From Trypanosoma brucei (Eukaryota), in assembly GCA_000002445.1 (NCBI GenBank), contig CP000070.1, positions 1,024,001-1,088,000 of the forward strand: DNA of 64,000 nt, in the 5' to 3' direction. The stretch's first letter is position 1. The number at the start of each line of letters is the position of its first letter. The translations under genes and the position numbers were made by a program. Below, in pieces: positions 8,471 to 42,059 of this stretch. The notes under the pieces were generated by a model, which had not been told where the DNA came from, did not search any database, and was given only the letters and a program-made list of their open reading frames with translations.

Positions 8471-9466
8471 ATGGATCACGATCAACTATACGACTCTCCC
8501 CAGTCTGCTAAAGACTCCCTTCTCGACATGACAGCGCTTTTGATCGTAACGTTTGCGCAGCGTGCAGTTATGGCTCCGTCGTATCGTGTAACGTTACTGG
8601 CCACCGTAGAAGGTGAGTTGGTGCGGGAAGGCCGGCTACCACCAAAGGGGTTTGGCGGAGTGTTTGGTTGCATAAAGCGTTTGTATGTCAAGGAAGGCGT
8701 AAGGTCATTTTTCCGTGGTCTTTTAACTGACGCTGTGCTCTCTCTCCCTGCGACCGTTGTTGAGAACATAAGCTCTACGTTGGTGTCTTTCGCGTTGCAG
8801 GTGGCCATCCCTGTCAGGCTCGTCGAGTCGATGAACCCGTGGACTTACTTGACTCTTTCACTCAGCTCCACATCCGCTGCAGTTTTACTCGCAACCCCTG
8901 CCACGGGCCTACACAGCACAATAGTGACGAACTACGTGGCTGACATTGTTGCACCTGTTCCCTCGGAGAAGTCCAAAAATCCTGACAAGGATGACGGTGA
9001 AAACAACAAGGAGATTAAGGAAGGCGAGAAGGGGGGTGAGGAATCGTACCGATATGCTACAGCTACGGAGGCGGTGGCGAGCATATTCCGACGGTGGGGA
9101 TTCAGCGGTTTCTATCGTTGCATCGGTGCCGATGCTATTGCAGTCTTTCTGTACAGGGGAACCTATTATTACGGGTTGCAGCTGTTACCCAGCACCCTGC
9201 ATAATCGCTTCCCTTATGGCATAAGCCGATGCCTCGCCGTCGTTGCTGGTTTCTTAACTCAACCATTTGAAGTTGTTAGTCGCCGCATGCAACTCACTGC
9301 TTCCTCCACAACGGGTCGCCGCTACAAGGGGATGCTCCACTGTGCCCGCACAATTGTTGCGGAGGAGGGATATACGGCTTTGTGGGCGGGGATGCAAGCA
9401 CGGCTACTGGTGACCTGTGTGGGTGTGGCGGTGCTGGAACTGCATCGCCATTTCTGGGCCGTTTAG
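8471..9466 (+). CDS. divergent mitochondrial carrier family (SLC25-like) protein
   Basis: 331 aa, the size of a tripartite carrier. The third repeat has the carrier signature PFEVVSRRMQ (P-x-[DE]-x-x-[KR]-x-R) at about nt 9263-9292. GFYRCIGADAIAVFLYRGTYYYGLQL and YKGMLHCARTIVAEEGYTALWAGMQARLL resemble the conserved carrier helix/loop motifs. Repeats 1-2 are degenerate. An acidic/Lys-rich insert lies at about aa 165-195. Polypyrimidine tract at 8200-8290. Confidence 0.55.
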   Translation: MDHDQLYDSPQSAKDSLLDMTALLIVTFAQRAVMAPSYRVTLLATVEGELVREGRLPPKGFGGVFGCIKRLYVKEGVRSFFRGLLTDAVLSLPATVVENISSTLVSFALQVAIPVRLVESMNPWTYLTLSLSSTSAAVLLATPATGLHSTIVTNYVADIVAPVPSEKSKNPDKDDGENNKEIKEGEKGGEESYRYATATEAVASIFRRWGFSGFYRCIGADAIAVFLYRGTYYYGLQLLPSTLHNRFPYGISRCLAVVAGFLTQPFEVVSRRMQLTASSTTGRRYKGMLHCARTIVAEEGYTALWAGMQARLLVTCVGVAVLELHRHFWAV

Positions 9467-10507: not shown

Positions 10508-13462
10508 GTGTTTGTGTTTTGTATTCACACAAATATGGTAAGTAAGTACCACCGCTTGCTTCAGCAGGGGCTACGTGAGGAAGAAGGAGTCACTGAACGA
10601 CATATGGTGGCAGGCGGTGAACAGCGGCACGGGCACGTGGATGACGACAATGCGGAAGGGGATGCTGATTTTTATGACCAGAAAGATGAGCGGCGAGCGA
10701 AAATGTCGAATCCTAAACATGAGTCTGCGAATGTTTCCGCGGGCGGGAAGCAAAATAGGTCGGTGAGGGATTGCCTCCCCGGTTCCCTTCCTCCCGTAGC
10801 CAATACGAGCACTGACGCGGCGGTCAGGTTTGATAGGGAACGAAAAAATGCGGGTCACGGGATTGATATTTCGTGTGTCGAAGGCGACGGTGCGCAAATG
10901 GGTACGTACGTCTCCACCGGCCGTAGTGACGCAAAAGCAGGGGGAGGAAGTAGCGCTATAGGCGTCACTGCCGATGATGAGAGTGATGGGAATTTGGACA
11001 CGGACGGTAGCGACGCTTCTGAGGGCGATGAGGTTGAGTCGACAACCGACGCTGATGTGTATGGGGAGGACGATACCACTGAAGGGCCTCGTGGTGGTGT
11101 GCGGTTGTATTCTTGCGATGCCTGTCCGCATGCTGTGTTCACAACTCATGCAGCGTTGCTTGCCCACGCTGAGGAGCACCATGCGGATCTATTACCAGAT
11201 CATGCCCGTTTGCGTCGTATCGCACAAAAACTTAATCCAGTGTGGAACCGCGCTCTAAATGCCCGTCGTAACACCATTACATCGTGGGGGAAGAAAATAT
11301 TCCACGTGGCCGCGCAACGTGATGCGGGGGAGTCGAAGATGCAGGAGGCTCATCGTGCCCGGGCACAACTGGAATGTGTTGTGCGCCGCTGGCATGATAA
11401 AGCACGTGTCTTTATATTTGGAAGCTCTGTGGCGATGGGCGTGTGGGACGGCACAGCGGATATTGATTTTGCCGTCGTTGATGTTGATGCAATGGAGCGT
11501 GGAAGTTGGCCACCGTTGGAGAAGAACGCTGTGCGTTCCATCACAGAGCTACTACGCCGGGTGGGGTTTTCATTTGTAAATTTGGAGCCAATTAGCCACG
11601 CTAGAGTGCCAATTATTAAACATCATGCTTCGTCACCAATCCTTACCGTCGCAAGAAGAGACGCAGAAGACGTTGTAGCTCGAAGCATTCGCTTTATTTT
11701 GAATGGCCCTGCCACGCGCGAGGATCGGTTGCTACTGGAAGGAAGCGTACGCGACGCTGTGGGCCCCACTGGGGTGCAACAGGTGTGGTGGAACCGCACC
11801 TCCGACATGATGTCAGCCACACTCGAAAGTACTACCGCTGCCGTTAGGGCAGCAATGTGCAGCCCGGCACTTGCCTCGGCATCACTGCGCACAAAGGTAC
11901 AGCCGGCGCATGATGAATGCAGGCCAGAGTTGTATAATATTGACTTCGATCTCAGCTTCCGCGCATTTGGCATACGCAATTCAACTCTTCTACGGAAATA
12001 CTTACTTAGTCACCCGTGCGCTCGACCAGGAGCCATTGTACTTAAAGATTGGAGCAAGACAAGTGGTGTGAATAACTCCGTTAACGGTTACTTTACTAGT
12101 TATGCAATCAACATAATGTGGATATATTACCTTGTTCAGAAGGGTTATGTGCCGTACGTGGATCCTCTTGAAATTCCTGAATCACTCGTAAATTATACCG
12201 ATTTTGACCCCAGGTACACCCCGATGATAGACCCAGAGATTACGAACACAGAGCGGGAGGAGCTGTACAAAGCAGCCGGCGACATGCTTGTGGGGTTCTT
12301 CTATTTTTACTCATTTGAATTCGACTGGGGGCATAACGTAATTTCCCTTAACCGGCCGGGAATAACAACGAAGAGGATGCTAGGGTGGCACGTTGAGGAC
12401 GTTGTACCGGTTGCTTCCACCTCAGTGAGCAGTGGTGGTGGAGGTAGCAATGTGAAGCGACACCCTACAAGGTACGAGCTTTGTATCGAGGATCCCTATG
12501 AAGAAAACTTAAATTTGGGCCGACACATCGGAGTAACGAAGTCGTTGCGTGTGCGGACGGAACTCTACCGCGGTCTCTTATCCTTATTGAAAGAGGGGGA
12601 GACAAGGTCGTGCGTCTTCGCCGCAGCGGATTCATCAGGCACGCCGGCGGCTGGGGGTAAGCAGTCGGCCGCTCTACCAGCTCGAGCACTGTTCAAACTG
12701 ATGGCCTTAACAACTCAGGCTATATCAGAATCAAGGCGTCTCCCACAAAGTAATAGTGACAATAGCGGTCGCATTGGTAACGGTGATAATGAATCCCTTA
12801 CGGAGGTCGGCGGTGGCCACAGGGTTGAAGGCGCTGGTGTCGATCCAGCTTCCTGCGCAGGGGCGTCGCTTTCCTCCTTCGGTGAGCCACCGATTGGAGT
12901 TCATGAGAAAACGCTTGAAAGCATATTTGTTGAGAAGGCCCCTATGGAGTTTCAGTTGGTACGAAAGGTATGGAACTGGCACCAACTGATCCATCGGCTC
13001 GGGTACAAAATACACCGAGGTCACGTGATGCCACGGCGTGAAGTTGGGGTACGTTGCACCGCCCGGCGCGATGCGGAAGAAACAACAACAGAACTGGCTT
13101 CGGACGTTGACACAACTAAGAGCCTGAGACCTGGGCGAGGTCTTACAGACACCATGCTGCGAGACCTGAGCCGCGGCTACATGACGCTCACACCGGAATG
13201 GGTTGCTTGGTCAGCGCCATGGGTAAGCCAACACTTGCGCGGATACAGCCGCTTAACGACAGTGCGTTCCGCAGTGGCCGATGAAACCCCACCCGCCCTG
13301 GCGACGGTTCCGTCTGTCGTGAAACCACCGACTGGAGAGGCGGTTATGGGTGCGATGAGGACCACCCGCCGAAATGCTGCACCTGCTCGTAGGGTGGAGC
13401 TGCTGAAGTTATGGCTCTGGCGCGGCATCAGCAAGGTTACTCCATTCAAGAGCCCTCGTTGA
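10508..13462 (+). CDS. RET1: terminal uridylyltransferase / non-canonical poly(A)-polymerase-fold nucleotidyltransferase, RET1-like (C2H2 zinc finger + Pol-beta NTase + PAP-associated domain)
   Basis: C2H2 finger YSCDACPHAVFTTHAALLAHAEEHH (nt ~11107-11183). NTase signature FIFGSSVAMGVWDGTADIDFAVVDVD followed by ARVPIIKH (nt ~11410-11600). A long insertion precedes the third Asp region YNIDFDLSF, the middle-domain arrangement typical of trypanosome TUTases. PAP-associated-like segment KDWSKTSGVNNSVNGYFTSYAINIMWIYYLVQKGYVPYVDP. An Arg/His-rich N-terminus is compatible with a mitochondrial presequence. The likely true start is the Met at 10535 (MVSKYHRL). The size (~975-984 aa) matches RET1 as I recall it. 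Confidence 0.75.
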   Translation: MFVFCIHTNMVSKYHRLLQQGLREEEGVTERHMVAGGEQRHGHVDDDNAEGDADFYDQKDERRAKMSNPKHESANVSAGGKQNRSVRDCLPGSLPPVANTSTDAAVRFDRERKNAGHGIDISCVEGDGAQMGTYVSTGRSDAKAGGGSSAIGVTADDESDGNLDTDGSDASEGDEVESTTDADVYGEDDTTEGPRGGVRLYSCDACPHAVFTTHAALLAHAEEHHADLLPDHARLRRIAQKLNPVWNRALNARRNTITSWGKKIFHVAAQRDAGESKMQEAHRARAQLECVVRRWHDKARVFIFGSSVAMGVWDGTADIDFAVVDVDAMERGSWPPLEKNAVRSITELLRRVGFSFVNLEPISHARVPIIKHHASSPILTVARRDAEDVVARSIRFILNGPATREDRLLLEGSVRDAVGPTGVQQVWWNRTSDMMSATLESTTAAVRAAMCSPALASASLRTKVQPAHDECRPELYNIDFDLSFRAFGIRNSTLLRKYLLSHPCARPGAIVLKDWSKTSGVNNSVNGYFTSYAINIMWIYYLVQKGYVPYVDPLEIPESLVNYTDFDPRYTPMIDPEITNTEREELYKAAGDMLVGFFYFYSFEFDWGHNVISLNRPGITTKRMLGWHVEDVVPVASTSVSSGGGGSNVKRHPTRYELCIEDPYEENLNLGRHIGVTKSLRVRTELYRGLLSLLKEGETRSCVFAAADSSGTPAAGGKQSAALPARALFKLMALTTQAISESRRLPQSNSDNSGRIGNGDNESLTEVGGGHRVEGAGVDPASCAGASLSSFGEPPIGVHEKTLESIFVEKAPMEFQLVRKVWNWHQLIHRLGYKIHRGHVMPRREVGVRCTARRDAEETTTELASDVDTTKSLRPGRGLTDTMLRDLSRGYMTLTPEWVAWSAPWVSQHLRGYSRLTTVRSAVADETPPALATVPSVVKPPTGEAVMGAMRTTRRNAAPARRVELLKLWLWRGISKVTPFKSPR

Positions 13463-15337: not shown

Positions 15338-16300
15338 ATGACGTTGTCGTCCGGGAGCCTCCCCAATTTCTTTCCGAGCCTCGATGGCAGCAACATAAAC
15401 AACTTCCCGGATGAAGCCCCCACACCAATGCTCTCTATGCGCTATGACGACGGTTTCATGAATCTCGAGAACGGATCGCGACATCCTTCTTCGAACTGCA
15501 ATACCCCGAGCGTCCGTTTTCACAATGGCCTCGCCTGGGTGGAGAACTGGCAGCTGTCATCCTCTAACTTGGTACCGCAAACACCTCCGTCAGCGGCCAT
15601 TGGGCCCTCACGTTCCCCATCTTCATTCTCATTGATGAAATACAGCCATGATCCCTACGGTGTGCGTGGTAACAGTCAACCACAAATGCAGCAACGGGCG
15701 GCAGGTTGCATGATGGTGGGCCGTGGGCCTTCTCCGAACGGTTGCTCAAGTCCCGTGATGCGTCTCAGTTGTGTGGAGGATGGGTCATCGCGATTCGCAC
15801 CTGGTCATTCAGCAGTGGTGCCTTCGGCTATTGAACGTCCGCTCTCTCAAACAGGGCAGCGGGAATTCCCTGACGGGCGGCCACGCCGGAAGGGGCGCGC
15901 ACGTGATCGAACTCGTGGCGGGCGTTCTCTAGCTGACGTCCCACCTCCCACGAGTATGCGTTACTTCCCACCGCCACCACCGTGTTTAGAGAGCATGATT
16001 TCTTGTGGCATTTCGCAAGCAACCCTCGTAAAAATCGCGACGAGGTGGTATGAGCGTACCATCGCTTGCGAGCAGTCATATGTTGGCCGCCTGCATGGTG
16101 GTTGCGCTGTTCTCCACGGTGCGGCAGCGTTCCGACGGCAACCCATTCTCGGTAGTTTACAGCCGGTGTTGTGCCCCCGCATGGAACTCACGCTGCAGTT
16201 TACCTTTGATCAGTGGCTAAAAGCAGCGAGCCGATGGTGGGAGACTGTAATCCGCCCAATGACAATGGAATACCGACTGCCACCGCCCTATGTTTTTTAA
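15338..16300 (+). CDS. hypothetical Ser/Pro-rich protein (320 aa)
   Basis: ORF on the coding strand, preceded by a polypyrimidine tract at 14811-14925 and a purine-rich leader. No domain recognised. Moderately low-complexity N-terminal half. Confidence 0.45.
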   Translation: MTLSSGSLPNFFPSLDGSNINNFPDEAPTPMLSMRYDDGFMNLENGSRHPSSNCNTPSVRFHNGLAWVENWQLSSSNLVPQTPPSAAIGPSRSPSSFSLMKYSHDPYGVRGNSQPQMQQRAAGCMMVGRGPSPNGCSSPVMRLSCVEDGSSRFAPGHSAVVPSAIERPLSQTGQREFPDGRPRRKGRARDRTRGGRSLADVPPPTSMRYFPPPPPCLESMISCGISQATLVKIATRWYERTIACEQSYVGRLHGGCAVLHGAAAFRRQPILGSLQPVLCPRMELTLQFTFDQWLKAASRWWETVIRPMTMEYRLPPPYVF

Positions 16301-27208: not shown

Positions 27209-30200
27209 ATGCGACGTACTTTCAGTCGCTACGCACGGTTCGCGGTGTGTCAGCAGTCTACTGGTGCAGGGACCATAGAGGGCCCTCTCCGTTTGCGCTC
27301 GGCAGATCAGACAGTAGTGTGGTGTTGCGCCGCAGCTGGGCGGAGGTCCTGGTTTTGCCTGCTTCCCAACTCGGTACGCGCGGGGTTGCATGAGCCACGC
27401 CGGTTCGCGTCAACGAGGGCCACGAATTCGCGCAAACCAGCGAGGGTTGCGCGATCGGGCGCCTCTTCACGAGCGCCACGCAAGGGCCCCAGACATTCAC
27501 AGGGGTTGAAGTCATCGCAGGAAAGTGAGGGAGAGTTTATGGCTACTACTTCAGATGATGACTTTGGACCAATGGCAGAGGGAGCAGCGGAAGAGGAGAG
27601 TGCAGGAGATTGTGATGCTGGTGTTGGCAGTAGTTTGACAGGTGGGCGAGAGACAACCGAATCATCCAACGTAGCGGCGGCGCCAGAGGAAGAAGGGGAA
27701 GGAGTTGGCACTACCGAAGGTGTTGAGACGGAGGGAGGTAAGCCTGGTAGGAGTGAGGAGGATCCACTGAATCTCCGAGTAGCCACGCTTATGCAGCAAC
27801 CAGGAAAGGCGTTCCGTGTAATTGCCGTGTCATATTCAGCTAAGCGGGAGTTAAATTTTCCCATTACTTTTGAGGACATTGCCTCTGGTACAACTCTAAA
27901 CTGTCGGTTGGAGGACGTACACACAACTTACATGAATTGGGTTCGTCAGTTTTGTGCGTCATGGGTTATGCTCTTTGTCCCAACCCTCTCAGCAGCCAGC
28001 GCCGTCCTACTGGAGAATGCCGTAGTGTACAGTAGGGTGGAACGTACTGTCTCTAACTCTCACCGTGGCTCTCCTGCACCCAAACAGTGGGAGGAACCGG
28101 ATCATGTGCTGGTTTCGTACAGCAAAATGCGTGAGGTGCTATGCAAAGTAAAGCGGGATGAGCAGGTAGACAAGGAGCTTGTTAGTAACACTGTACTCAG
28201 TGCATTTGCGGAGGACTGGAAGAGCTTTATTCACTCAACAGCATCTTGCTCACCGGCATCAATTGTGACCGCATCGTTTGATTTCCGCCCCAACGGCGGG
28301 CATCTCCAGTTGAACAAGAAATTTTTGCACGCACAGTTGACAACAGCGGCGATGACACTGTTGAGGCATGTTGCACGTAAGGGATCGTCTGCCAGCGGCA
28401 CTCCATGTAGTTCTTCCACTAAGGAGGTTACATCTGGCGCGAACAACTCTGTAGCTGATGATATTCGCAGGAAGGAATCTTGGTTGTTAATTTTTGTTTC
28501 CGCACCTGCGGGGAGCGCAACGAGTTTTCTAGGGCCCAGAGCAGTCAACTTGGGCGTACCACCTATGCAAGATCTTCTTACTGGTGAGTTTGTGGATCCC
28601 CTTCTCCTTGGGGGGAGGAACGTCATTTACATTATCGGTTCCGGAACGGCGGCAGAAGCCTTTTCAAAAATACCATCTGTGCGTAAGGGCAAACGTCAGA
28701 TATCGATACTATTGAAGGATATAGAGAATCAACTGGGGCCGTTTCGGGCGAGTCGCCCGACGTTAACCACCACGCTTATACAGGCGTTAGATACGTTTTC
28801 GCGGCACACGTGGATTGGGTTAATGAAGGAGGAGGATGGCACAGTTCGAGTGCCCCGGGCTCCTCAGAGCTTTGTTCATCTGCACCGGCGAAGCGTTACG
28901 CGTGAGGTGTTGCCTAAGTTTCTTGAGTCGACGTTAGGACATATTTCTCACCACAACTCCGCCTATGGAGTCGCAGAGGTGGGAATGGGCGGTGCGGCTG
29001 GCGCTGCGGGTGCAAACGCGCTCCTGCAGCTGGGAAAGTTAAACCGCAAGGTAGATGAGCATATAAAGGCGATTTTCAACAATGCTGAACGACTCGAGAA
29101 GGAGAAGGCACTCCGCGAGAGTTTGCGTCGTAGCAACTGTTTCTTTGTAGATGTCAAGTCGGCGAACATCTCGGCGGCACGTCGAGCTGACAATCCCTTT
29201 TCTACACGAAATGGTATATTGGAGTTTCACGGCCAACTTTGGGCGACCCTTGGCATGGGGGAGACGGCACGAGCGGGAAAGACAACAGGTTGTCCACCAG
29301 TGAAGACGCTCACAGCGCAGCTCGCTCCCAATGGCGACGTGCAGGCTTTCGTTAGACCCGAGGAATGCATTCCGATGGAATTACCTACTGGCTCTAGTGA
29401 TACAAGCACCATAAGGCATAAGGGGATATCATTAGCTGCATCAGCATCTAGTGCCTCTAGTGGGATAATCATTGCATGGGACGTGAAGCGTGCGCTGCTT
29501 TTTCTTCGCGGCAGCAACAGACTTCGAGAATTTCTCCTTAACGGTGGTAGGATTTGGTGTGCACAGTACGCACAGTACCTACTTAAAGGGTTCAACAACC
29601 ACAACCTCACCACAATGGAGCGGACACTCCTTCAGTACCACACGGTGCAGACCAAGTTGCATCCTCTGGAGAAGCTGAAGATAATTTTTGAGAAACAACT
29701 TGATATTGCGGTGAATACTCGGCAGCTTATATCGATCGTGCATCGTATGGATGGTCTTCTTGCTTGTACTGAAATGGAGTTACGTGGGCTTCAGATAGCT
29801 CCACAAGAAGACATTACAGCCTTTGCCCGTAACCTGAAAAGGACCCGGGAGGAACTGGAGAAGGCAGTTAATGATAAAATCATGGTGTTCACGGAAGGAA
29901 TGGATAATGAAGTGAGACGTAAGATTAACGTTCGCTCTACGCAGGATATCAGCACAATCATCTACGGTGGCGCGTTGTGTCGGCATCTGGGTACGCGATA
30001 CGTGTCACCTCACATTCCCCGCATTCCTGTGACGGCAATCTTTCCACATGCAGTATGCCGCCTAACAACAACCCCTGTCCCTGAGCTGTACACAAACGCC
30101 GAGAACCTCCTTGGGGTCAAAGGAACAGGCAACAGCGGTAACAACAATAATGCTAACAAGATTGCTGAAGCAGCGACCATTACGGCCAACGCAGTGAATA

Positions 30201-32158
30201 CAACCCTTAAGATTATTGACAAGTATCTGAAGGACAATACATTGGATAATTTGCTCAACAATACGGCTATTGTGGTAGTGACATGTAAGGTACGGACCAG
30301 TAGCTTTCTGGAGGTGATCACCATCCATTGCCCTTCTAGTGATCCTAATGATGAACTGCGGCACACTGTTGCGATCGATGACGTCTTACCAGTAATGAGC
30401 TCACCCGAGCTGGTTACCATAACTCAACTCAAGGAGAAAATTGCCGCCTACAGGCCTTTACGAGCGCTCCAACCACTCAAGAAGTACGGCAGACGCAGTT
30501 ATGACCTTCGAAATCTCGTCATTCTCACTCATTGTTCCTTCGACAAGACGGCTGTGTTGGTAGACACGGGCATTATACAGACGATCGCCGAAACTGTTCT
30601 TGGTAAAGAAAATGAAGAACGGTCCCTCCTCGAACGTGTCTGTTTCTGTGACATCAATCGCGCCTTTCCACCTCCCCCAGAGGGAGGTGATTCGTTTGAG
30701 AATGATTTCTTAGGACTTGTGAATGGTGCTGAACAGGCCGGCGTGTCCTCCCGCAGCAACTGGGAGGCTTTCACGCGGAACTTTGCTGCGGTTGGAGGGT
30801 TTGAGGACACACGCAGGGCGTTGGTGCTGCATTGTGCCTCGTTAGTTGGTACGGCAAGAGACCCATTCCGTACGGCCCATCCCTTGCCCTTTGCGTTAGT
30901 GGGGTTTAATGGTCAACAGGCGCTTGGGTTACATGGGCAAGAGCGGGCCTCGACGCGTGGGATGCTGTGGATGGTTACTCCCGAACGGCTACACCCGTTG
31001 CTTCATCGCTCACTGCGTGGCCGCAGTGCGTCATCCGGCGCGGACGCCATTGAGCGGATCAATGTGTTGCTTTCGAATGAAAAACAGGTGGATCTCTCCT
31101 TTTTCAAGGCCCTTCAGCAATTGCGTTTCATGGAAAAGCAAATGCAGCTCTTCGAAGAAGGTGCTCTGTTTCGGGCAGTTTTACCGGAGTGCAAAAATCG
31201 TGTTCACGGTGAGTTCTGCCATGTCGTTACTGCGACGGGTCGACTTTCTTCACAGTCGCCTAACCTGCAGAACATTCCCAAGGAAGATTTGAGGTGCCTA
31301 ATCGTCTCTCGCTTCGGTCGGCGTGCTGGTCGTATGATTGAGGCGGACTATAGTCAGTTGGAAGTTGTGGTGCTCGCTGCTCTCAGTCGGGACGCCCGCA
31401 TGTTGCAGGAACTTAACGACAATGTGGATTTCCATTGCCTACGTGTTTCTCTCATGACAAAAGAGCCCTACGAGGATGTAATACACAAAGTGAAGCAGGT
31501 GAAGGATCCCCACTATATTCAGCTACGGCAGCAGGCGAAAACATTTTCGTTTCAACGTCAATATGGTGCAGGGACATCAACCATAGCCACAACGACGGGG
31601 CTTAGTGAGACGGAGGTTGTGCGGCTGATTGCCGCCGAGGAACAGCATTACAAGGACTTGGGACGCTACTATAGGCTTGTAACGGACTGTGTAGAGGCGG
31701 GTGCCGATCGCTTGTTGCAGTTGCGTACATTAGATGCAACATCTTGGCCCCCCACGATGCGTCGAATGGTGCTTTTGACTGAACCGATGCATTATTTTGT
31801 GGTACCAACGGGAAGCAAATTTGACTTCACGAAGGATAAGAAGGCTGTGCCACGACTGAAAAATTACCCCGTTCAGGGACTGGCTGGGGAAATTGTTCAA
31901 ATTATGTGTGGAAAGATTATTCGTCGCTTCTATGCAAAACGTAACTACAACGATAAGGCGTTTCTTGTTAATACCGTTCACGATTGCGTTTGGATTGATG
32001 CCCACGAATCCGTTGCAGACGAGGTAATGGACGACGTATCCGCCATAATGTCCTCCACCTCCGAAGTCATTAGTAGTTTATGGCCAGGCGTAAAGTTGGA
32101 TGTCCCATTCAAAGCAGAGATTCATATAGGACCATCACTAGGGGAGTTGTCCAGGTAG
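27209..32158 (+). CDS. POLIC: family A (Pol I-like) DNA polymerase, POLIC-like, with ~1000-aa N-terminal extension
   Basis: C-terminal polymerase domain carries all Pol A motifs. TATGRLSSQSPNLQNIPK is at nt ~31229-31280. Motif A EADYSQLEVVVLAALSRD is at ~31341-31390. Motif B (O-helix) RQQAKTFSFQRQYGAG has R, K, F and Y at Klenow-equivalent spacing. NYPVQGLAGEI and motif C VHDCVWID are at 31976-31999. The length of 1649 aa matches what I recall for T. brucei POLIC (unverified). The N-terminus MRRTFSRYARFAV looks like a mitochondrial presequence. Confidence 0.85.
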   Translation: MRRTFSRYARFAVCQQSTGAGTIEGPLRLRSADQTVVWCCAAAGRRSWFCLLPNSVRAGLHEPRRFASTRATNSRKPARVARSGASSRAPRKGPRHSQGLKSSQESEGEFMATTSDDDFGPMAEGAAEEESAGDCDAGVGSSLTGGRETTESSNVAAAPEEEGEGVGTTEGVETEGGKPGRSEEDPLNLRVATLMQQPGKAFRVIAVSYSAKRELNFPITFEDIASGTTLNCRLEDVHTTYMNWVRQFCASWVMLFVPTLSAASAVLLENAVVYSRVERTVSNSHRGSPAPKQWEEPDHVLVSYSKMREVLCKVKRDEQVDKELVSNTVLSAFAEDWKSFIHSTASCSPASIVTASFDFRPNGGHLQLNKKFLHAQLTTAAMTLLRHVARKGSSASGTPCSSSTKEVTSGANNSVADDIRRKESWLLIFVSAPAGSATSFLGPRAVNLGVPPMQDLLTGEFVDPLLLGGRNVIYIIGSGTAAEAFSKIPSVRKGKRQISILLKDIENQLGPFRASRPTLTTTLIQALDTFSRHTWIGLMKEEDGTVRVPRAPQSFVHLHRRSVTREVLPKFLESTLGHISHHNSAYGVAEVGMGGAAGAAGANALLQLGKLNRKVDEHIKAIFNNAERLEKEKALRESLRRSNCFFVDVKSANISAARRADNPFSTRNGILEFHGQLWATLGMGETARAGKTTGCPPVKTLTAQLAPNGDVQAFVRPEECIPMELPTGSSDTSTIRHKGISLAASASSASSGIIIAWDVKRALLFLRGSNRLREFLLNGGRIWCAQYAQYLLKGFNNHNLTTMERTLLQYHTVQTKLHPLEKLKIIFEKQLDIAVNTRQLISIVHRMDGLLACTEMELRGLQIAPQEDITAFARNLKRTREELEKAVNDKIMVFTEGMDNEVRRKINVRSTQDISTIIYGGALCRHLGTRYVSPHIPRIPVTAIFPHAVCRLTTTPVPELYTNAENLLGVKGTGNSGNNNNANKIAEAATITANAVNTTLKIIDKYLKDNTLDNLLNNTAIVVVTCKVRTSSFLEVITIHCPSSDPNDELRHTVAIDDVLPVMSSPELVTITQLKEKIAAYRPLRALQPLKKYGRRSYDLRNLVILTHCSFDKTAVLVDTGIIQTIAETVLGKENEERSLLERVCFCDINRAFPPPPEGGDSFENDFLGLVNGAEQAGVSSRSNWEAFTRNFAAVGGFEDTRRALVLHCASLVGTARDPFRTAHPLPFALVGFNGQQALGLHGQERASTRGMLWMVTPERLHPLLHRSLRGRSASSGADAIERINVLLSNEKQVDLSFFKALQQLRFMEKQMQLFEEGALFRAVLPECKNRVHGEFCHVVTATGRLSSQSPNLQNIPKEDLRCLIVSRFGRRAGRMIEADYSQLEVVVLAALSRDARMLQELNDNVDFHCLRVSLMTKEPYEDVIHKVKQVKDPHYIQLRQQAKTFSFQRQYGAGTSTIATTTGLSETEVVRLIAAEEQHYKDLGRYYRLVTDCVEAGADRLLQLRTLDATSWPPTMRRMVLLTEPMHYFVVPTGSKFDFTKDKKAVPRLKNYPVQGLAGEIVQIMCGKIIRRFYAKRNYNDKAFLVNTVHDCVWIDAHESVADEVMDDVSAIMSSTSEVISSLWPGVKLDVPFKAEIHIGPSLGELSR

Positions 32159-33298: not shown

Positions 33299-34966
33299 AT
33301 GGTGTTAAAATTGTTGCTGGAGCTTGGAGCCGAGAGGTATGCGGAACAATTCGCCGCCAAATGCCATGAACTGGGGATGGTGATGAAGGAATCTGCAGGA
33401 CCCGGCAGAGTACCCGTTCCGGTGACGCTTCAGCCATCTATGATTTCTCGCGGTGAGTTTGGAACTCTCTGTTGTATGCAGCCGCTATGGAATGAGGCCG
33501 TCGACAATACAGCTAGAAACTTTACTTTCCTTCGTGATGCTTTGCAAGAGACGGCAGCCAGCGATGTCAACTTCACTGGGAAGCTCCTGAACATGCTCCA
33601 AGAGGTGTACCTCAGCGGAGGGCCGTTCCAACAGCTCATGCTCGGTATATTCCGCACAGATTACATGCGTGAAGGGGTTTATGATAAGATGCTGTCGACG
33701 ACGGCGTCTCGTTGGAAGAATGTTGAAATCAATACCATCAGCTGCTCTTTCGCCGGTCTATCGCCTCTCATCACTGAGTTTCATCAACACATCGCTGCGT
33801 ATCTTCAAGTGCTGCAGAAAGCAAGAGGAAAGGAGGATGATGACGGAGTTGAGAACATGAGTTGGATATGGGGTAAGGGCAACTGCAGATTGGAGAGAAG
33901 TGTCTCGGGTGATGTTGTACCAAAAGCAATAGCGGACGCAGTGCGTGCGTGGGTGGAGCAGCAGAAGTTTGCCTCACTTCGTGCGTCGTGGGAGCAGTTT
34001 CAACAGAATGAAGTAGGAAGCGGTGAAATACACCAACTTGGGGTGCTTGACACCGCGCCCGTTGTGCTCGTTGTTGTTCAGGAGAATGAACGTAACACTG
34101 CCGATCAGTATGCTCTGCTAATGAGAGTACTTGAGGAGCACCGCATTCGCTTCATATTTCGAACACTTCAGGAGCTCCACTTGTCACTGAAACTTCACAG
34201 CATCAGCCCCGAGCAACCACCTCTTGCTGTTGTTGACGGGCATTATCCGATAGCAGTTGCTTACTTCCGCAGCACCTACGTGCCGGAGGACTTCCCAACA
34301 GACGCCACATGGGCCGCTCGCCTTTCCTTGGAGCGCAGCAGCGCCATTAAGTGTCCAAGCATACCTTACCATTTGTTAACATTCAAGAAACTGCAACAAC
34401 TTCTGTGTGACGTGGATCGTGTGCTTGTACCAGTCGCTTTCTGTGGTGATTCGGATAAAGCAGGCTTGCTCCAGCGGCACTTCGTACCTCAATATTCTCT
34501 GAACCCGAAGGAAGTGGGTGAGGAAGCCGTGGAGAAAGTTATTCATGATGTACTTCAGCGGCCAGACCAATTTGTGTTAAAACCTCAGTTGGAGGGCGGT
34601 GGTAATCTTCTCTCTGGCGAGACGATGGTGAAGGCACTGAAGGCAACCAAGGAGGGGGATCCGGTTACGTACAGCAAGGTGCGTTGTGAGTACGTCGTCA
34701 TGTCGCGTATACAATTTCATGTCAGCACGGGGAGTTTGCTGGCGCGTGGTGACGTGGTTCAACTAGAGCGCAACATGTGTTCTGAAGTTGGCATTTTTGG
34801 CGTTATTCTCAGTGCTGCCAAGGGGTCAAGCGTAGGCACCAATGGTTCTTCAGTGCTTTTCAACACCTTTGCTGGATATACTGTTCGATCGAAACCTGCG
34901 GATGCGGATGATGGTGGCGTCATGGCAGGTGTTGCGGCTCTTGATTCCTTAGCGGTTGTACCGTAA
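33299..34966 (+). CDS. GS: eukaryotic glutathione synthetase (ATP-grasp)
   Basis: 555 aa. Gly-rich ATP-binding loop VLKPQLEGGGNLLSGETMVKALK (nt ~34573-34640) parallels VLKPQREGGGNN..GEEM in eukaryotic GSS. Overall length and the substrate-binding region (..AVVDGHYPIAVAYFRSTY..) fit the eukaryotic GSH synthetase family. Confidence 0.8.
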   Translation: MVLKLLLELGAERYAEQFAAKCHELGMVMKESAGPGRVPVPVTLQPSMISRGEFGTLCCMQPLWNEAVDNTARNFTFLRDALQETAASDVNFTGKLLNMLQEVYLSGGPFQQLMLGIFRTDYMREGVYDKMLSTTASRWKNVEINTISCSFAGLSPLITEFHQHIAAYLQVLQKARGKEDDDGVENMSWIWGKGNCRLERSVSGDVVPKAIADAVRAWVEQQKFASLRASWEQFQQNEVGSGEIHQLGVLDTAPVVLVVVQENERNTADQYALLMRVLEEHRIRFIFRTLQELHLSLKLHSISPEQPPLAVVDGHYPIAVAYFRSTYVPEDFPTDATWAARLSLERSSAIKCPSIPYHLLTFKKLQQLLCDVDRVLVPVAFCGDSDKAGLLQRHFVPQYSLNPKEVGEEAVEKVIHDVLQRPDQFVLKPQLEGGGNLLSGETMVKALKATKEGDPVTYSKVRCEYVVMSRIQFHVSTGSLLARGDVVQLERNMCSEVGIFGVILSAAKGSSVGTNGSSVLFNTFAGYTVRSKPADADDGGVMAGVAALDSLAVVP

Positions 34967-38388: not shown

Positions 38389-40629
38389 ATGTATACCAGT
38401 GTTAGAAAGCCTCCGCTTTCCACAGCGAAGCTTTCAGAGAAGACGGATGCTGCAGGCAAGGGTAACCTCAATGGAGTAGCTGAGTCACCGACATCGCGTG
38501 ACGGAGGGATTGGCAGCAGCATGCCGTACGTCGCCAGGAAACCCAACTCTGGTGATGGTCAGGGACGTCCAGGTGAGGTCCAGAGAGCAGGACAAGTAAC
38601 ATATCAAACAACTAACGCCCTTTTCACGGGAAGCACAGTTCCAGGAAAAACTAAGGACGTCAGCACCGCCAAAAGTAGTGGTGGAGGTGATCACCTTAAC
38701 AATGGAGACAGGCCTCCCCTTGTCGGCGACAACAATGAAGTAAGCTCGCCACGAACTATAAAAATGAACAGCTCTCCCCCTCGACGCTATTTTCACCGAG
38801 GGGCTATAAACTGCAACTCAAGCGAAAACGTGGCGGCGGTTCTCGGCGGTTCCACATTGATTAGCGGTGAGAGAGTAGGCAGTGGCTCTGGGTATCCACG
38901 CCGTGTTTTTTCAGGTCCACCTTCCACGCGGATGTTAAATCAAGGAGGTGAGGAGCCTGCACAGAAACCACAACCACCCGGAAGCAGCAGATCAAAGTCT
39001 GGCATAAGACAACTACAGTTCGCACTGAACGGCAACAGTAGCCAGCGTTTGCTACCCGTCCCCCCACGCCAACTGTGTCCCTCCAATCCAGCGCGACGTG
39101 GTGGTGGTGCCGCCACAGTGACCCCACGATGCTCTGACGCACGGCGGCAAAAGCAAGATTCGACGGATCCGTTTGACATGACTCAAGTTCTCAATGGTGT
39201 TGGCACTCAGTTGGGTCTCCCTTCTTACTGCCCGGGCGCCGAAAGCTCTCAAGGAAGCAACCGATTGAGGGGCTCGAAACCACCATCACCATCTTTATTG
39301 CCACTGGCGTCTCTGAGGTCGCAGCAAATGCCATCAACGGCGGGTGTACCCGCCCCACGGTCCCTCTCAGAGTCGCAGCAGCTGTCGATCAATCCTAGCG
39401 GGGTGTTTGGCTGCGCCACTGATTGCAAGAACGGGCTTGGTTACGACTTCCGTGTAGTGGCGAGCACAGGGAAATCTTTCAATTTACCAATCAAACTTAC
39501 CGCAGGCGTTGGTTGCGTGCAAGGCCTTCGACCAACAATGGAGGATGAACACTTCATCCGTCTGCAGGCAACTACAGCTGTGGGGCAGCCCGTGTCGCTG
39601 TTGGGTATTCTTGACGGCCACTGTGGCCGCCGTGTCGCGGAGTTGGCCGCAAAGCATGTACCAGACAACTTCATTGCCCACCCCGCACTCGGGGAAAATA
39701 ACGCACTAGCCTTTGTGGAGTCCATTATACAAGCAGACCGGGCGATTTTTCATTCAATAGGAAAAGGTAGCGGAGGTGTGGGACTTTCAGCTGGTTTTGG
39801 TGGCTCTGGAGGATCGACACTTATTGCCGCGGCAGTTCATGGACGAATGCTGTATGTTGCTTGTCTGGGGGATGCACGCGCTGTGCTTTATGATGGCAAT
39901 ACGACCATACCAATGAGTGAAGACCATAAACCCCTGAATAAAAAGGAACACACACGCATCCTTCAGTGTGGTGGCTTTGTACAGCTTGGTAGGGTTTGTG
40001 GTGTTCTTGCGGTGAGCCGCGCATTAGGCGATTACGAATTCAAGTTTAATGGGAATCGGTTTATATCTAATCGCGAACTGATGGTTTCTAATGTTGCCGA
40101 TGTGCGGCAGATTAACCTGACAGACTCTAGCAAGTTCCTTCTCCTGGCTTGCGACGGCCTGTGGGATGCGGTGCAGAACGAGGAGGCGACACAGTTCGTT
40201 CGTGACTTCCTAAGCTATACCCCTGACGTAGGTTCATCGCCGGAGGCCACTAAGCGGGCGATAAATAACTGTTGTCAAAAACTTGCTGAGTTTGCTGTCA
40301 GCCGCGGGAGTACGGATAACGTTTCGGTGATGCTATTGTTCTTTCACAACGTGGCCGATGTTGTCGCAAGTTTTGATCGTGCAAGCGACGCAACAACGTC
40401 GAGGGCGACGGTAACAAGCCCCGTTTCTCCACGGTTATTCAGTGCAAGCAGAGGTGTGAATGCCGGGTTCACAGGTATGGAATCGAGACTAGCCGGAATC
40501 TCTGGGGGTAGTAGTAGCGGTGCATTCGGCGGCAGTAGTGGAGCTGAGGGTTCTTCTGTCAGGGGAGCTGGTCGTACAAAAGTGGACAGAGGCGCCTCGT
40601 GGTTAACCCGGAGTCGCTCTCTGTGGTAA
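38389..40629 (+). CDS. protein phosphatase 2C (PPM family) with ~370-aa disordered N-terminal extension and ~90-aa Ser/Gly-rich C-terminal tail
   Basis: PP2C motifs in order: GLRPTMEDEHF (nt ~39521), LGILDGHCG, ACLGDARAVLY, SEDHKP, LAVSRALGDYEFK, LLLACDGLWDAV, GSTDNVSVMLLFF. The first ~370 aa are Ser/Pro/Gly/Asn-rich low complexity. Confidence 0.85.
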   Translation: MYTSVRKPPLSTAKLSEKTDAAGKGNLNGVAESPTSRDGGIGSSMPYVARKPNSGDGQGRPGEVQRAGQVTYQTTNALFTGSTVPGKTKDVSTAKSSGGGDHLNNGDRPPLVGDNNEVSSPRTIKMNSSPPRRYFHRGAINCNSSENVAAVLGGSTLISGERVGSGSGYPRRVFSGPPSTRMLNQGGEEPAQKPQPPGSSRSKSGIRQLQFALNGNSSQRLLPVPPRQLCPSNPARRGGGAATVTPRCSDARRQKQDSTDPFDMTQVLNGVGTQLGLPSYCPGAESSQGSNRLRGSKPPSPSLLPLASLRSQQMPSTAGVPAPRSLSESQQLSINPSGVFGCATDCKNGLGYDFRVVASTGKSFNLPIKLTAGVGCVQGLRPTMEDEHFIRLQATTAVGQPVSLLGILDGHCGRRVAELAAKHVPDNFIAHPALGENNALAFVESIIQADRAIFHSIGKGSGGVGLSAGFGGSGGSTLIAAAVHGRMLYVACLGDARAVLYDGNTTIPMSEDHKPLNKKEHTRILQCGGFVQLGRVCGVLAVSRALGDYEFKFNGNRFISNRELMVSNVADVRQINLTDSSKFLLLACDGLWDAVQNEEATQFVRDFLSYTPDVGSSPEATKRAINNCCQKLAEFAVSRGSTDNVSVMLLFFHNVADVVASFDRASDATTSRATVTSPVSPRLFSASRGVNAGFTGMESRLAGISGGSSSGAFGGSSGAEGSSVRGAGRTKVDRGASWLTRSRSLW

Positions 40630-42059
40630 GGGATGCTGTGGCAAGTATTCGGTGATGTTATGAGGAGACAGGTTGCGGCCCTGTTTGGGTGTATTACGTA
40701 TGCCTCTGCTTCAGAGGAAAGTGATTGGGGGAGGGGGGAGGGAGGGAAACGGAATGAAAGTGGGGTGAAGATTAGTACTGATGCTATTGTAAGGGAAGGG
40801 GGATGTAACGGATGGATGCCCGTGGTTTTCTTCCTGAAGCCTTTATTTACCGCTGCCCAGCCTCTCCCTGCACCCGTTCCCCCAATACGTGAAACTCACC
40901 AGAACACTGGGACGCTAGCGCATGTACAGGCACTAATTTCTTTTTTTTTTTTGTAGTCCCCCTTTGTTTTCCCCTTCACTCATCTTTTACTTCTATGTTT
41001 TCCTGCTTTTTTTGTATCTTGTTATTGCCTGAGCGAACTCTCCGCACACATCCCTTTCTGTGTGCACCCCTTACACATACATATCTGTATACCAATTATT
41101 ATCATTATTGTTTGGCGAGCCATTCCCGTGCTCATACGCACATACAGTGGAAATGATCAGTGACTGAAGGGGAAAGGAAAGGGAGGTTTCTTTTTTTATT
41201 TTCATTTTATTTTCATGTTTCCCCACTTATCTTTCTTTCTGATTTTTATAACCCGCCGCTGCCTTCATTGTTGATGGGACAGCAATGGCAGGCCGTTTGA
41301 CGGTGTAAACCTTAGAACGTCGCCTCCACGCCTCTTCCTCCTCGTCGTGAAAGCTTAGCATTTCGGTGGGAAGCAACTACTGATTATGGAAATGCCTAGA
41401 AAAAACAAAGAAAGGAAGTAAATAAAAAGCCAAAGGGGGTCGAAGGAGGTGTAGATGGAAGTTAGGAATGGGATGGAAGTTGATGGGTGGTATGTGTGGG
41501 TGAAACAGCTCTGAAGGCAAAGCTAAACGATGCTTTATTTCTAAATGATTCTGTAGTAAAAACTTAGAGATTGGTTGAAGAGGGACCGCTTTTGCAGGTT
41601 GTTTATTTCGCCGCACAGGAGCCTCCGGTTGGGTTGCAGCGGGGCGAAGTGAATGCGTTGGGGTATGGTGGTGTAATGAAGCATGGTTGAGGAAAAGCGA
41701 AACGTTGGAGTATGAAAAGAAGGAATATTAAAGCGGGATTGTCGTGTAATGGCGGTAACATTGGACTTATTCGTGTGCGACTCGCCTCCTTTTCCACCTT
41801 TCTCTTTCGGTCCTTTTTCTTTTAAATAGTGTTTTCCCGTCCACCATCACTCTCTCAACGTACTGCACATTTTAATTCAACCTTCTAACAGTAACGCAGG
41901 TTATATGTAAGGTGAAAAAGATGTTGCCACCATTACTATTGGTTAGCAGCACATGCACATGCGGAAGAAGTGGCGGAGCTTTTTTGTTGTTTTTTATGGT
42001 TTTTGCTTTTATTTGTCTGAACCGTGGCTGAGACCTCCTCCTTCACGTTTTGCGTGCCC

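What the first reader, a model, noticed from the sequence alone, without database searches (positions are those of the whole stretch)
31976..31999. Family-A polymerase motif C reads HDC instead of the canonical HDE
Motifs A (DYSQLE), B (RxxxKxxxFxxxYG) and the TGRLSSxxPNLQNIP segment are intact in the POLIC-like polymerase. In motif C the sequence is VHDCVWID: the His and the catalytic Asp are present, but the following acidic residue (Glu883 in Klenow numbering) is Cys. That Glu contacts the primer 3' end / metal B in Pol I enzymes and is nearly invariant in Pol I, Taq, T7, Pol gamma and Pol theta. A natural Cys here would be a lineage-specific active-site variant of a kinetoplast replication enzyme; alternatively it is a sequencing or strain polymorphism.
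Basis: partly seen in the sequence, partly recalled or inferred. Interest (0 to 1): 0.55.

Follow-up and report, generated by a model that had tools for sequence, protein, structure and literature searches.

The report
POLIC polymerase has natural HDC motif
The cysteine that replaces the "invariant" glutamate in the active-site motif C of this trypanosome mitochondrial DNA polymerase (POLIC) is real. It is not special to POLIC: the enzyme inherited it from a large group of phage polymerases that almost never carry that glutamate and still work.

Summary
Observation confirmed. Window 31976-31999 encodes VHDCVWID, and TGC at 31985-31987 is Cys1593 of a 1649-aa ORF. That ORF matches Trypanosoma brucei POLIC in length and in the catalytic residues D1380 and D1592. 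The motif C alignment is correct: it is the only HD dipeptide in the protein, and it sits at a predicted beta-hairpin turn.

The Cys is not a sequencing error, because POLIC orthologues from T. congolense, Angomonas and Phytomonas all read HDC. It is also not specific to POLIC or to kinetoplastids. Among the 257 nearest homologues with a recognisable motif C, the residue after the catalytic Asp is Cys 173, Ser 69, Ala 12, Asn 2 and Glu 1. Named phages of the clade from which POLIB/C/D derive read:
- HDC: Atuphduovirus, Friunavirus, Tawavirus
- HDA: phiKMV, KP34
- HDS: ICP2
- HDE, outside the clade: T7, SP6, E. coli Pol I

Published work shows that wild-type POLIC extends primers and that D1380A/D1592A abolishes this. 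The Glu is described there as an accessory residue (Klenow E883A lowers kcat 26-fold) that does not contact primer or dNTP in T7 or Klentaq structures.

Verdict: a genuine and ordinary hallmark of this clade. The accessible literature does not describe it; one paper calls HDE invariant outside POLIB. Modest interest.

The parts
27209..32158 (+). POLIC gene (mitochondrial DNA polymerase I-like protein C), 1649 aa plus a TAG stop
   Evidence: ORF list and translation. The length of 1649 aa and the catalytic residues D1380/D1592 match T. brucei POLIC as described in bioRxiv 10.1101/730523. The best named homologue is T. congolense 'mitochondrial DNA polymerase I protein C', 90% identical over the domain.
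31097..32143 (+). Family A polymerase domain (aa 1297-1645)
   Evidence: Pfam PF00476, 133.4 bits, E 1.3e-38. The AlphaFold2 model matches Bst, Taq and Klenow structures at Foldseek E about 1e-17 and probability 1.0.
31235..31279 (+). TGR motif, TGRLSSQSPNLQNIP (aa 1343-1357)
   Evidence: Read from the sequence. Aligned with the same segment in phage polymerases and E. coli Pol I.
31346..31363 (+). Motif A, DYSQLE (aa 1380-1385), with catalytic Asp1380
   Evidence: Read from the sequence. D150 of the query is an invariant column in the 60-sequence alignment. D1380A is one of the two inactivating mutations in the literature.
31427..31438 (+). DFHC (aa 1407-1410): a second clade-typical Cys (C1410) next to the conserved D-x-H of the fingers
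   Evidence: D177 and H179 are invariant and C180 is at least 90% conserved in alignment A1. The Cys is present in 146 of 159 HDC homologues that include the motif A region. E. coli Pol I has DIHR and T7 has DIHT at this place.
31526..31567 (+). Motif B, RQQAKTFSFQRQYG (aa 1440-1453)
   Evidence: Read from the sequence. R210, K214 and F218 are invariant and Y222 is at least 90% conserved in A1.
31862..31879 (+). Motif 6, NYPVQG (aa 1552-1557)
   Evidence: Read from the sequence. N322, Q326 and G327 are invariant in A1. Aligned with nYPVQG of the apicoplast polymerase.
31976..31999 (+). Motif C, VHDCVWID (aa 1590-1597), with catalytic Asp1592
   Evidence: V360, H361, D362 and D367 are invariant; C363 and W365 are at least 90% conserved. 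The model shows a hairpin, with strands at query positions 354-360 and 363-369.
31985..31987 (+). TGC codon for Cys1593, at the position of Glu883 of E. coli Pol I
   Evidence: Homologues use both Cys codons at this site (TGT 77, TGC 43 in 120 IMG/VR matches), so the conservation is at the amino-acid level.
32129..32155 (+). C-terminal tail GPSLGELSR, lacking the terminal His found in T7 (H704), SP6 and E. coli Pol I (H928)
   Evidence: Alignment. PMC3241644 describes the T7 E655-H704 pairing.

Best explanation
Cys1593 is the genuine, inherited residue at the third position of motif C in T. brucei POLIC. Kinetoplastid POLIB, POLIC and POLID descend from a phage family A polymerase of the phiKMV-like / 'AGV+ins' autographivirus clade. 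In that whole clade, and in its basal relative ICP2, the Glu of the canonical HDE has been replaced by a small uncharged residue. Cys is the commonest replacement; Ser and Ala occur in sister lineages.

Shown in the literature: catalysis depends on the two Asp residues, D1380 in motif A and D1592 in motif C.

Inferred: the Glu is an accessory residue that this clade does without. The Cys is kept mainly as a small side chain at the start of the strand after the catalytic hairpin, not for thiol chemistry, because functional relatives tolerate Ser and Ala there.
For: 1. Identity and alignment.
2. Orthologues with HDC: T. congolense, Angomonas and Phytomonas POLIC.
3. Clade census: of 120 best hits, 119 have a motif C, reading HDC 116 and HDS 3. 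Among 257 nearest homologues the counts are C 173, S 69, A 12, N 2, E 1.
4. Named phages: HDC in Atu_ph03, NMeng1, SWH-Ab-1 and JSF7; HDA in phiKMV and KP34; HDS in ICP2; HDE in T7, SP6 and E. coli Pol I.
NTVHDExW gave only 8 matches, 5 by chance and 3 from another subclade.
6. Both Cys codons are used, TGT 77 and TGC 43.
7. The phage origin of PolIBCD is published (PMC7883662), and the closest phage hits are Autographiviridae.
8. Function: immunoprecipitated wild-type POLIC extends primers, and D1380A/D1592A abolishes this.
9. The Glu is accessory: Klenow E883A lowers kcat 26-fold, and T7 E655 and Klentaq E786 contact neither primer nor dNTP. Thermus phage Tt72 polymerase naturally has Ser at this position, and S616A keeps 76% of activity.
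Against: - Within the HDC subclade the Cys is at least 90% conserved despite deep divergence (about 35% identity). That is stronger than 'any small residue will do' predicts, so the thiol may have a specific role.
- POLIB, which has HDS, is a weak polymerase, so changes at this position may not be neutral.
- No enzyme of this clade has had this residue mutated, and none has a solved structure.
- POLID could not be identified by name, so its motif was not confirmed directly.
- Raw reads of this strain could not be checked.
Confidence: 0.85

Rival explanations
1. The TGC codon is a sequencing or assembly error, or a strain polymorphism, and the true residue is Glu.
For: None found. The exact 1649-aa protein is not on record in the assembly index, so independent T. 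brucei assemblies could not be compared.
Against: - POLIC orthologues of T. congolense, Angomonas and Phytomonas all have Cys.
- 173 of 257 nearest homologues have Cys and only 1 has Glu.
- TGC to GAA or GAG needs three base changes.
Confidence: 0.01
2. Motif C was misaligned, and the real HDE lies elsewhere in the protein.
For: None.
Against: - The only HD dipeptide in all 1649 residues is at 1591-1592.
- phmmer and MAFFT put it under the HDE of apicoplast Pol, E. coli Pol I, T7 and SP6.
- It follows NYPVQG at the usual spacing and lies at the predicted hairpin turn.
- D1592 is the residue mutated to kill activity.
Confidence: 0.01
3. The Cys is a functional innovation. The thiol next to the catalytic Asp does specific chemistry, possibly together with the second clade-typical Cys in DFHC or with a C-terminal His. 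Candidate roles are a softer metal ligand that changes Mg/Mn preference, a Cys-His pair replacing the T7 Glu655-His704 pair, or a redox switch on polymerase activity.
For: - Cys is at least 90% conserved in the subclade, with both codons in use.
- A second conserved Cys (C1410) lies next to the conserved His of D-x-H.
- HDC members keep a C-terminal His-type tail far more often than HDS members (96/173 against 3/69).
Against: - Sister lineages with Ser or Ala are the polymerases of phages that have been isolated and propagated (phiKMV, KP34, ICP2), which are presumably functional replicases.
- POLIC itself lacks the C-terminal His.
- The His-tail association is not corrected for shared ancestry, and many of the sequences are fragments.
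- There is no experimental hint of thiol dependence in the papers read.
Confidence: 0.12
4. Loss of the Glu marks POLIC as a degenerate polymerase whose essential role is non-catalytic.
For: - POLIC has a non-catalytic role in kDNA distribution through its N-terminal region.
- The isolated POLA domain was inactive in immunoprecipitates.
Against: - Full-length wild-type POLIC extends primers to the end of the template.
- The catalytic-dead mutant is dominant negative and cannot rescue RNAi.
- The same HDC motif is present in the polymerases of many phages.
Confidence: 0.02

Closest known systems
Trypanosoma brucei POLIC (mitochondrial DNA polymerase I-like protein C)
   Same: - Length of 1649 aa.
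- C-terminal family A domain only, behind a long N-terminal region with no Pfam domain.
- Catalytic D1380 and D1592 at exactly the published positions.
- 90% identity to T. congolense POLIC in the domain.
   Different: Nothing detectable. This appears to be that gene. The exact sequence could not be matched to a database record.
phiKMV-like / 'AGV+ins' autographivirus family A polymerases (Harada & Inagaki 2021; cluster 13 of Czernecki et al. 2023)
   Same: - Closest non-eukaryotic relatives, 34-40% identical.
- Share the NxVHD[C/A]xxxD motif C without Glu, DFHC, Phe at the variable motif B position, and NYPVQG.
   Different: - The phage enzymes are about 700-800 aa with their own N-terminal region, whereas POLIC has a 1200-aa eukaryotic N-terminal extension.
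- Many phage members end in a His that POLIC lacks.
- phiKMV and KP34 themselves read HDA, not HDC.
T. brucei POLIB (HDS in motif C; Delzell et al. 2022, PMC9731263)
   Same: - A paralogue from the same phage-derived clade that also lacks the motif C Glu.
- The deviation is conserved in all kinetoplastid orthologues.
- Proteins with POLIB architecture in my set read HDS.
   Different: - Ser instead of Cys.
- POLIB carries an RNase_T exonuclease inserted in the thumb and is a weak polymerase.
- The paper calls HDS unique and HDE invariant in all other family A enzymes, which POLIC and the phage clade contradict.
Canonical family A polymerases (E. coli Pol I/Klenow, Taq, Bst, T7 gp5, Pol gamma, apicoplast Pol)
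   Same: Same fold and the same motifs A, B, 6 and C, with two catalytic Asp residues.
   Different: - They have HDE (E883, E786, E831, E655, E1136).
- Only about 20% identical to POLIC.
- In T7 the Glu pairs with the C-terminal His704.
Thermus phage Tt72 DNA polymerase (PMC9324360)
   Same: A natural family A polymerase with a non-acidic residue (S616) after the motif C Asp. It is active, and S616A keeps 76% of activity.
   Different: An unrelated subfamily, less than 30% identical to other type A enzymes. It has Ser rather than Cys.

Membership tests
Family A DNA polymerase (Pfam PF00476) | Pfam DNA_pol_A match above the gathering score | tested here: met
   133.4 bits against a cut-off of 34.3, aa 1297-1645.
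Family A DNA polymerase (Pfam PF00476) | Motif A with a catalytic Asp (DYSQ[IL]E) | tested here: met
   DYSQLE at 1380-1385. The Asp column is invariant.
Family A DNA polymerase (Pfam PF00476) | Motif B, RxxxKxxxFxxxYG (O helix) | tested here: met
   RQQAKTFSFQRQYG at 1440-1453.
Family A DNA polymerase (Pfam PF00476) | Motif C His-Asp at a beta-hairpin turn | tested here: met
   H1591-D1592 lie between predicted strands and align to the HD of Pol I, T7 and apicoplast Pol.
Family A DNA polymerase (Pfam PF00476) | Glu after the motif C Asp (the 'HDE' often called invariant) | tested here: not met
   Cys1593. The same feature is missing in 256 of 257 nearest homologues, so it defines the canonical subfamilies rather than family A as a whole.
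Family A DNA polymerase (Pfam PF00476) | Right-hand Klenow-type fold | tested here: met
   AlphaFold2 model with pLDDT 81.6. Foldseek top hits are Bst, Taq and Klenow at E about 1e-17 and probability 1.0.
Family A DNA polymerase (Pfam PF00476) | Template-directed DNA synthesis | not testable with these tools
   Literature only: immunoprecipitated wild-type POLIC extends primers, and D1380A/D1592A does not.
T. brucei POLIC | 1649 aa with catalytic D1380 and D1592 | tested here: met
   Searches compared with bioRxiv 10.1101/730523.
T. brucei POLIC | Only a C-terminal POLA domain, with the rest an uncharacterised N-terminal region | tested here: met
   Pfam finds a single domain.
T. brucei POLIC | Named POLIC orthologues are the best hits | tested here: met
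   T. congolense (90%) and Angomonas deanei (73%) 'mitochondrial DNA polymerase I protein C'.
PolIBCD+ / AGV+ins phage-derived clade (Harada & Inagaki 2021) | Closest non-eukaryotic relatives are autographivirus family A polymerases | tested here: met
   tblastn best hits are Atuphduovirus, Tawavirus, Friunavirus and rhizobiophages at 34-40% identity.
PolIBCD+ / AGV+ins phage-derived clade (Harada & Inagaki 2021) | [quoted passage not shown] | not tested
   The paper's text does not give a position I could map. My alignment shows several indels shared by POLIC and these phages relative to T7, SP6 and Pol I, but I did not identify which one is the published insertion.
PolIBCD+ / AGV+ins phage-derived clade (Harada & Inagaki 2021) | Motif C without Glu (HD[C/S/A]); a signature proposed here, not a published criterion | tested here: met

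The most novel reading that the evidence does not exclude
The Cys next to the catalytic Asp is a functional thiol. It is conserved across the HDC polymerases together with a second Cys (DFHC) beside the conserved His of the D-x-H motif. It would give these enzymes a distinct metal preference or redox sensitivity. It would also offer a nucleophile for covalent inhibitors selective for essential kinetoplastid POLIC, since human Pol gamma has Glu at this position (E1136), as other canonical family A enzymes do.
Probability: 0.12. Interest if true: 0.6.

Novelty: already known. Interest (0 to 1): 0.27.

Why it matters
It corrects a textbook-style assumption. The Glu of motif C 'HDE' is not invariant in family A polymerases. 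A large, environmentally abundant phage clade and its eukaryotic descendants (kinetoplastid POLIB and POLIC, and probably POLID) lack it.

This bears on the published claim that the HDS of POLIB is unique. It also means the weak polymerase activity of POLIB cannot be attributed simply to loss of the Glu.

HD[C/S/A] could serve as an easy signature for this clade in viromes, alongside the published 8-aa insertion.

In practical terms, a Cys beside the catalytic Asp of an essential parasite enzyme is a conceivable handle for covalent inhibitors, because human Pol gamma has Glu there (E1136). That idea is untested.

Tried and rejected
- Exact-protein lookup of POLIC in public assemblies, to get independent T. 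brucei copies of the codon: not on record.
- Naming POLID. Two cluster look-ups and a homologue search with a 1618-aa HDC candidate (P0133) gave no names, so the POLID motif remains unconfirmed. Long proteins of about 1500-1660 aa with only a polymerase domain do read HDC.
- Supplement of the POLIB paper (its Fig. S4 alignment): not held. Klingbeil 2002: not held.
- The hypothesis that Glu and its C-terminal His partner were lost together is rejected as a general rule. Many HDC phage enzymes keep a terminal His (GPNMxDLH), while POLIC, phiKMV, KP34 and Friunavirus lack it.
- The hypothesis that the Asp five residues after the catalytic Asp compensates for the lost Glu is rejected. Canonical enzymes have an acidic residue at the same place (VHDELVFE).
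- NTVHDExW matches in IMG/VR: 5 of 8 are out-of-frame chance matches and 3 belong to a different polymerase subclade.
- Distances in the model, such as Cys1593 to Cys1410 or to D1380, could not be measured because model coordinates are not returned.
Full report
**What is at the coordinates**

Window 31976-31999 reads gtt cac gat tgc gtt tgg att gat, which translates to VHDCVWID. TGC at 31985-31987 encodes Cys1593 of a 1649-aa ORF on the + strand, 27209..32158. Pfam finds one domain, DNA_pol_A, at aa 1297-1645 (133 bits against a cut-off of 34.3).

**Is this really motif C?**

Yes, on four grounds.
- phmmer against PDB sequences aligns vhdCvwid with vhdEiiie of the apicoplast polymerase, preceded by the shared NYPVQG.
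- A MAFFT alignment puts it under QVHDELVFE of E. coli Pol I. I checked D882/E883 on the K-12 polA gene. It also aligns with WVHDEIQV of T7 gp5 and NVHDEIQM of SP6.
- His1591-Asp1592 is the only HD dipeptide in the whole protein, so no other HDE exists.
- An AlphaFold2 model built on a 60-sequence alignment has mean pLDDT 81.6, and above 90 around the motif. It places H-D at the turn between two strands (query 354-360 and 363-369), with the Cys as the first residue of the second strand. PMC3241644 describes Klenow E883 in the same position.

The model matches Bst, Taq and Klenow structures at Foldseek E of about 1e-17.

**Which gene is it?**

The length of 1649 aa, the architecture (a C-terminal POLA domain behind a long uncharacterised region) and the catalytic residues D1380 and D1592 match T. 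brucei POLIC as described by the Klingbeil laboratory. That group inactivated the enzyme with D1380A/D1592A. The best named homologue is T. congolense 'mitochondrial DNA polymerase I protein C', 90% identical over the domain.

All ORFs of 200 aa or more that are not nested inside a longer + strand ORF lie on the + strand. The neighbours include a mitochondrial carrier, a Cid1-type nucleotidyltransferase, glutathione synthetase directly downstream, and a PP2C phosphatase. This fits a trypanosomatid polycistronic unit.

**Sequencing error or polymorphism?**

No. POLIC of T. congolense, Angomonas deanei and Phytomonas sp. Hart1 all read NTVHDCVW. I could not compare other T. brucei assemblies, because the exact protein is not on record. 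Changing TGC to a Glu codon would need three substitutions.

**Specific to POLIC or to kinetoplastids?**

- Of the 120 best hits in the 5.8-billion-protein search, 119 have a recognisable motif C: 116 read HDC and 3 read HDS. Most are polymerases of about 700 aa on contigs of about 45 kb.
- In a 60-sequence alignment with mean identity of about 37% to POLIC, N, V, H, D and the Asp five residues on are invariant. The Cys and the Trp two residues later are at least 90% conserved.
- An exhaustive HMMER search of 1.84 billion cluster representatives added 130 more distant relatives.
- Over all 257 homologues with a recognisable motif C, the residue after the Asp is Cys 173, Ser 69, Ala 12, Asn 2 and Glu 1.
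Of these, 110 passed an automated polymerase-context check and a few of the rest look genuine too. Both Cys codons are used (TGT 77, TGC 43).
- The same pattern with Glu hit 8 contigs. Five are out-of-frame chance matches and three belong to a different polymerase subclade.

**Named phages**

tblastn against GenBank phages gives Autographiviridae as the nearest relatives, at 34-40% identity. Reading their genes gives:

| Motif C | Phage or enzyme |
|---|---|
| HDC | Agrobacterium phage Atu_ph03 and Nostoc phage NMeng1 (Atuphduovirus) |
| HDC | Acinetobacter phage SWH-Ab-1 (Friunavirus) |
| HDC | Vibrio phage JSF7 (Tawavirus) |
| HDA | phiKMV gp19 |
| HDA | Klebsiella phage KP34 (Drulisvirus) |
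| HDS | Vibrio phage ICP2 |
| HDE | T7, SP6, E. coli Pol I |

These HDC and HDA genera are those that Harada and Inagaki (PMC7883662) place in the 'AGV+ins' clade. That clade shares an 8-aa insertion with kinetoplastid and diplonemid PolIB/C/D, and they derive PolIB/C/D from it. ICP2 is basal in their tree. Loss of the Glu is therefore older than the transfer into the kinetoplastid-diplonemid ancestor, and POLIC simply kept the commonest phage state.

For the paralogues, POLIB is reported to have HDS in all kinetoplastids (PMC9731263). Proteins in my set with POLIB architecture (RNase_T exonuclease plus PolA, about 1410-1435 aa) read HDS. POLID could not be identified by name. Long proteins with only a polymerase domain, about 1500-1660 aa, read HDC.

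**How it most likely works**

Shown in the literature:
- Immunoprecipitated wild-type POLIC extends primers.
- The D1380A/D1592A protein does not. It is dominant negative and cannot rescue POLIC RNAi.

The HDC enzyme is therefore an active polymerase that depends on the two canonical Asp residues.

According to PMC3241644:
- Klenow E883A lowers kcat 26-fold.
- T7 E655 and Klentaq E786 contact neither primer nor dNTP.
- T7 E655 pairs with the C-terminal His704, which lies near the phosphate of the primer 3' nucleotide.

A precedent exists for doing without the carboxylate: the Thermus phage Tt72 polymerase has Ser at this position, and S616A retains 76% of activity.

Inferred: in this clade the accessory role of the Glu is dispensable or is met in another way, and the position is held by a small uncharged residue. 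Cys, Ser and Ala all occur in the polymerases of phages that have been isolated and propagated, which are presumably functional. I therefore rate a structural or packing role for the Cys as more likely than thiol chemistry. The strength of Cys conservation within its subclade keeps a specific role open, at about 0.12.

**Compensation hypotheses tested**

- The Asp at +5 (HDCVWID) is not clade-specific, because canonical enzymes have Glu at the same place.
- The C-terminal His partner is kept in many HDC phage enzymes (…GPNMKDLH) but is absent from POLIC (…GPSLGELSR), Phytomonas, phiKMV, KP34 and Friunavirus.
- His-type tails are much commoner among HDC members than HDS members (96/173 against 3/69). 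That count is not corrected for shared ancestry and includes fragments.
- A second clade-typical Cys sits in DFHC (C1410), beside the conserved His of D-x-H. It is present in 146 of 159 HDC members with that region. I could not measure its distance to Cys1593.

**Comparison with what is known, and novelty**

The gene, the protein and its activity are known, and the phage ancestry of the clade is published. What I did not find in the papers I could search is any statement that POLIC and the phiKMV-like/AGV+ins clade lack the motif C Glu.
- Harada and Inagaki do not discuss motifs.
- Czernecki et al. show motif logos but comment only on motif B.
- The POLIB paper states that HDS is unique and that HDE is invariant in all other family A polymerases. 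The present data contradict that statement.

No member of the clade has a solved structure. The best PDB matches are about 20% identical.

I therefore file the feature as already known in substance, being a residue of a characterised enzyme that is typical of its clade. The clade-level generalisation is small, useful and apparently unremarked.

**Verdict**

The Cys is natural, ancestral and ordinary for this clade, and it is not a POLIC-specific innovation. Interest is 0.27.

Noticed in passing
window 31427-31438 (aa 1407-1410, DFHC): There is a second clade-typical cysteine, C1410, directly after the conserved His of the D-x-H motif. It is at least 90% conserved in the 60-sequence alignment and present in 146 of 159 HDC homologues. 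E. coli Pol I has DIHR and T7 has DIHT here. It is unknown whether it lies near Cys1593.
   Followed up: partly
window 32129-32155 (aa 1641-1649, GPSLGELSR): POLIC lacks the C-terminal His that ends T7 gp5 (H704), SP6 gp14 and E. coli Pol I (H928), and that many HDC phage polymerases keep (…GPNMKDLH). In T7 that His pairs with the motif C Glu. Among homologues, His-type tails accompany HDC far more often than HDS (96/173 against 3/69). This count is not corrected for phylogeny.
   Followed up: partly
literature: PMC9731263 compared with window 31976-31999: The POLIB paper states that HDS is a unique substitution and that HDE is invariant in all other family A polymerases. POLIC (HDC), phiKMV and KP34 (HDA), ICP2 (HDS) and hundreds of metagenomic polymerases contradict this.
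   Followed up: yes
window 1-64000, whole window: All ORFs of 200 aa or more that are not nested inside a longer + strand ORF lie on the + strand, as in a trypanosomatid polycistronic unit. Pfam hits are a mitochondrial carrier (8471-9466), a Cid1-type poly(A) polymerase/TUTase-like protein (10508-13462), glutathione synthetase (33299-34966, directly downstream of POLIC) and PP2C (38389-40629). Several large ORFs have no Pfam match.
   Followed up: partly
window 201-1163 and 15338-16300: Two + strand ORFs have the identical length of 320 aa and neither has a Pfam match. They may be duplicated genes. I did not compare them.
   Followed up: no
window 27307-27924 (- strand): A 205-aa GTG-initiated ORF lies antisense inside the POLIC N-terminal region. 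It is almost certainly spurious, being a mechanical ORF within a conserved coding region.
   Followed up: no
L132, L133, L134 (IMG/VR contigs, about 45-50 kb): Three viral contigs encode a different, shorter-tailed family A polymerase subclade with LNTVHDE[VIL]W and a C-terminus …NG[AV]RYLK*. It has the same local motif context as POLIC but keeps the Glu.
   Followed up: no
P0133 / P0259 (about 1620-aa metagenomic proteins, HDC): Their precomputed Pfam annotation lists PF27040 and PF27042 N-terminal to the polymerase domain. The Pfam copy I could scan did not report these families. They may mark a POLID-like or diplonemid-type N-terminal region.
   Followed up: no
P0123 (EukProt, 3255 aa): A POLIC-like polymerase domain, 70% identical and reading HDC, sits at the C-terminus of a 3255-aa predicted protein. 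This is probably a gene-model fusion in a protist transcriptome or genome.
   Followed up: no
L138 40112-42680 (Vibrio phage ICP2): The ICP2 DNA polymerase gene is annotated as joined from two pieces, with an HNH endonuclease gene (41371-41820) between them. This looks like an intron or intein-like interruption of the polymerase.
   Followed up: no
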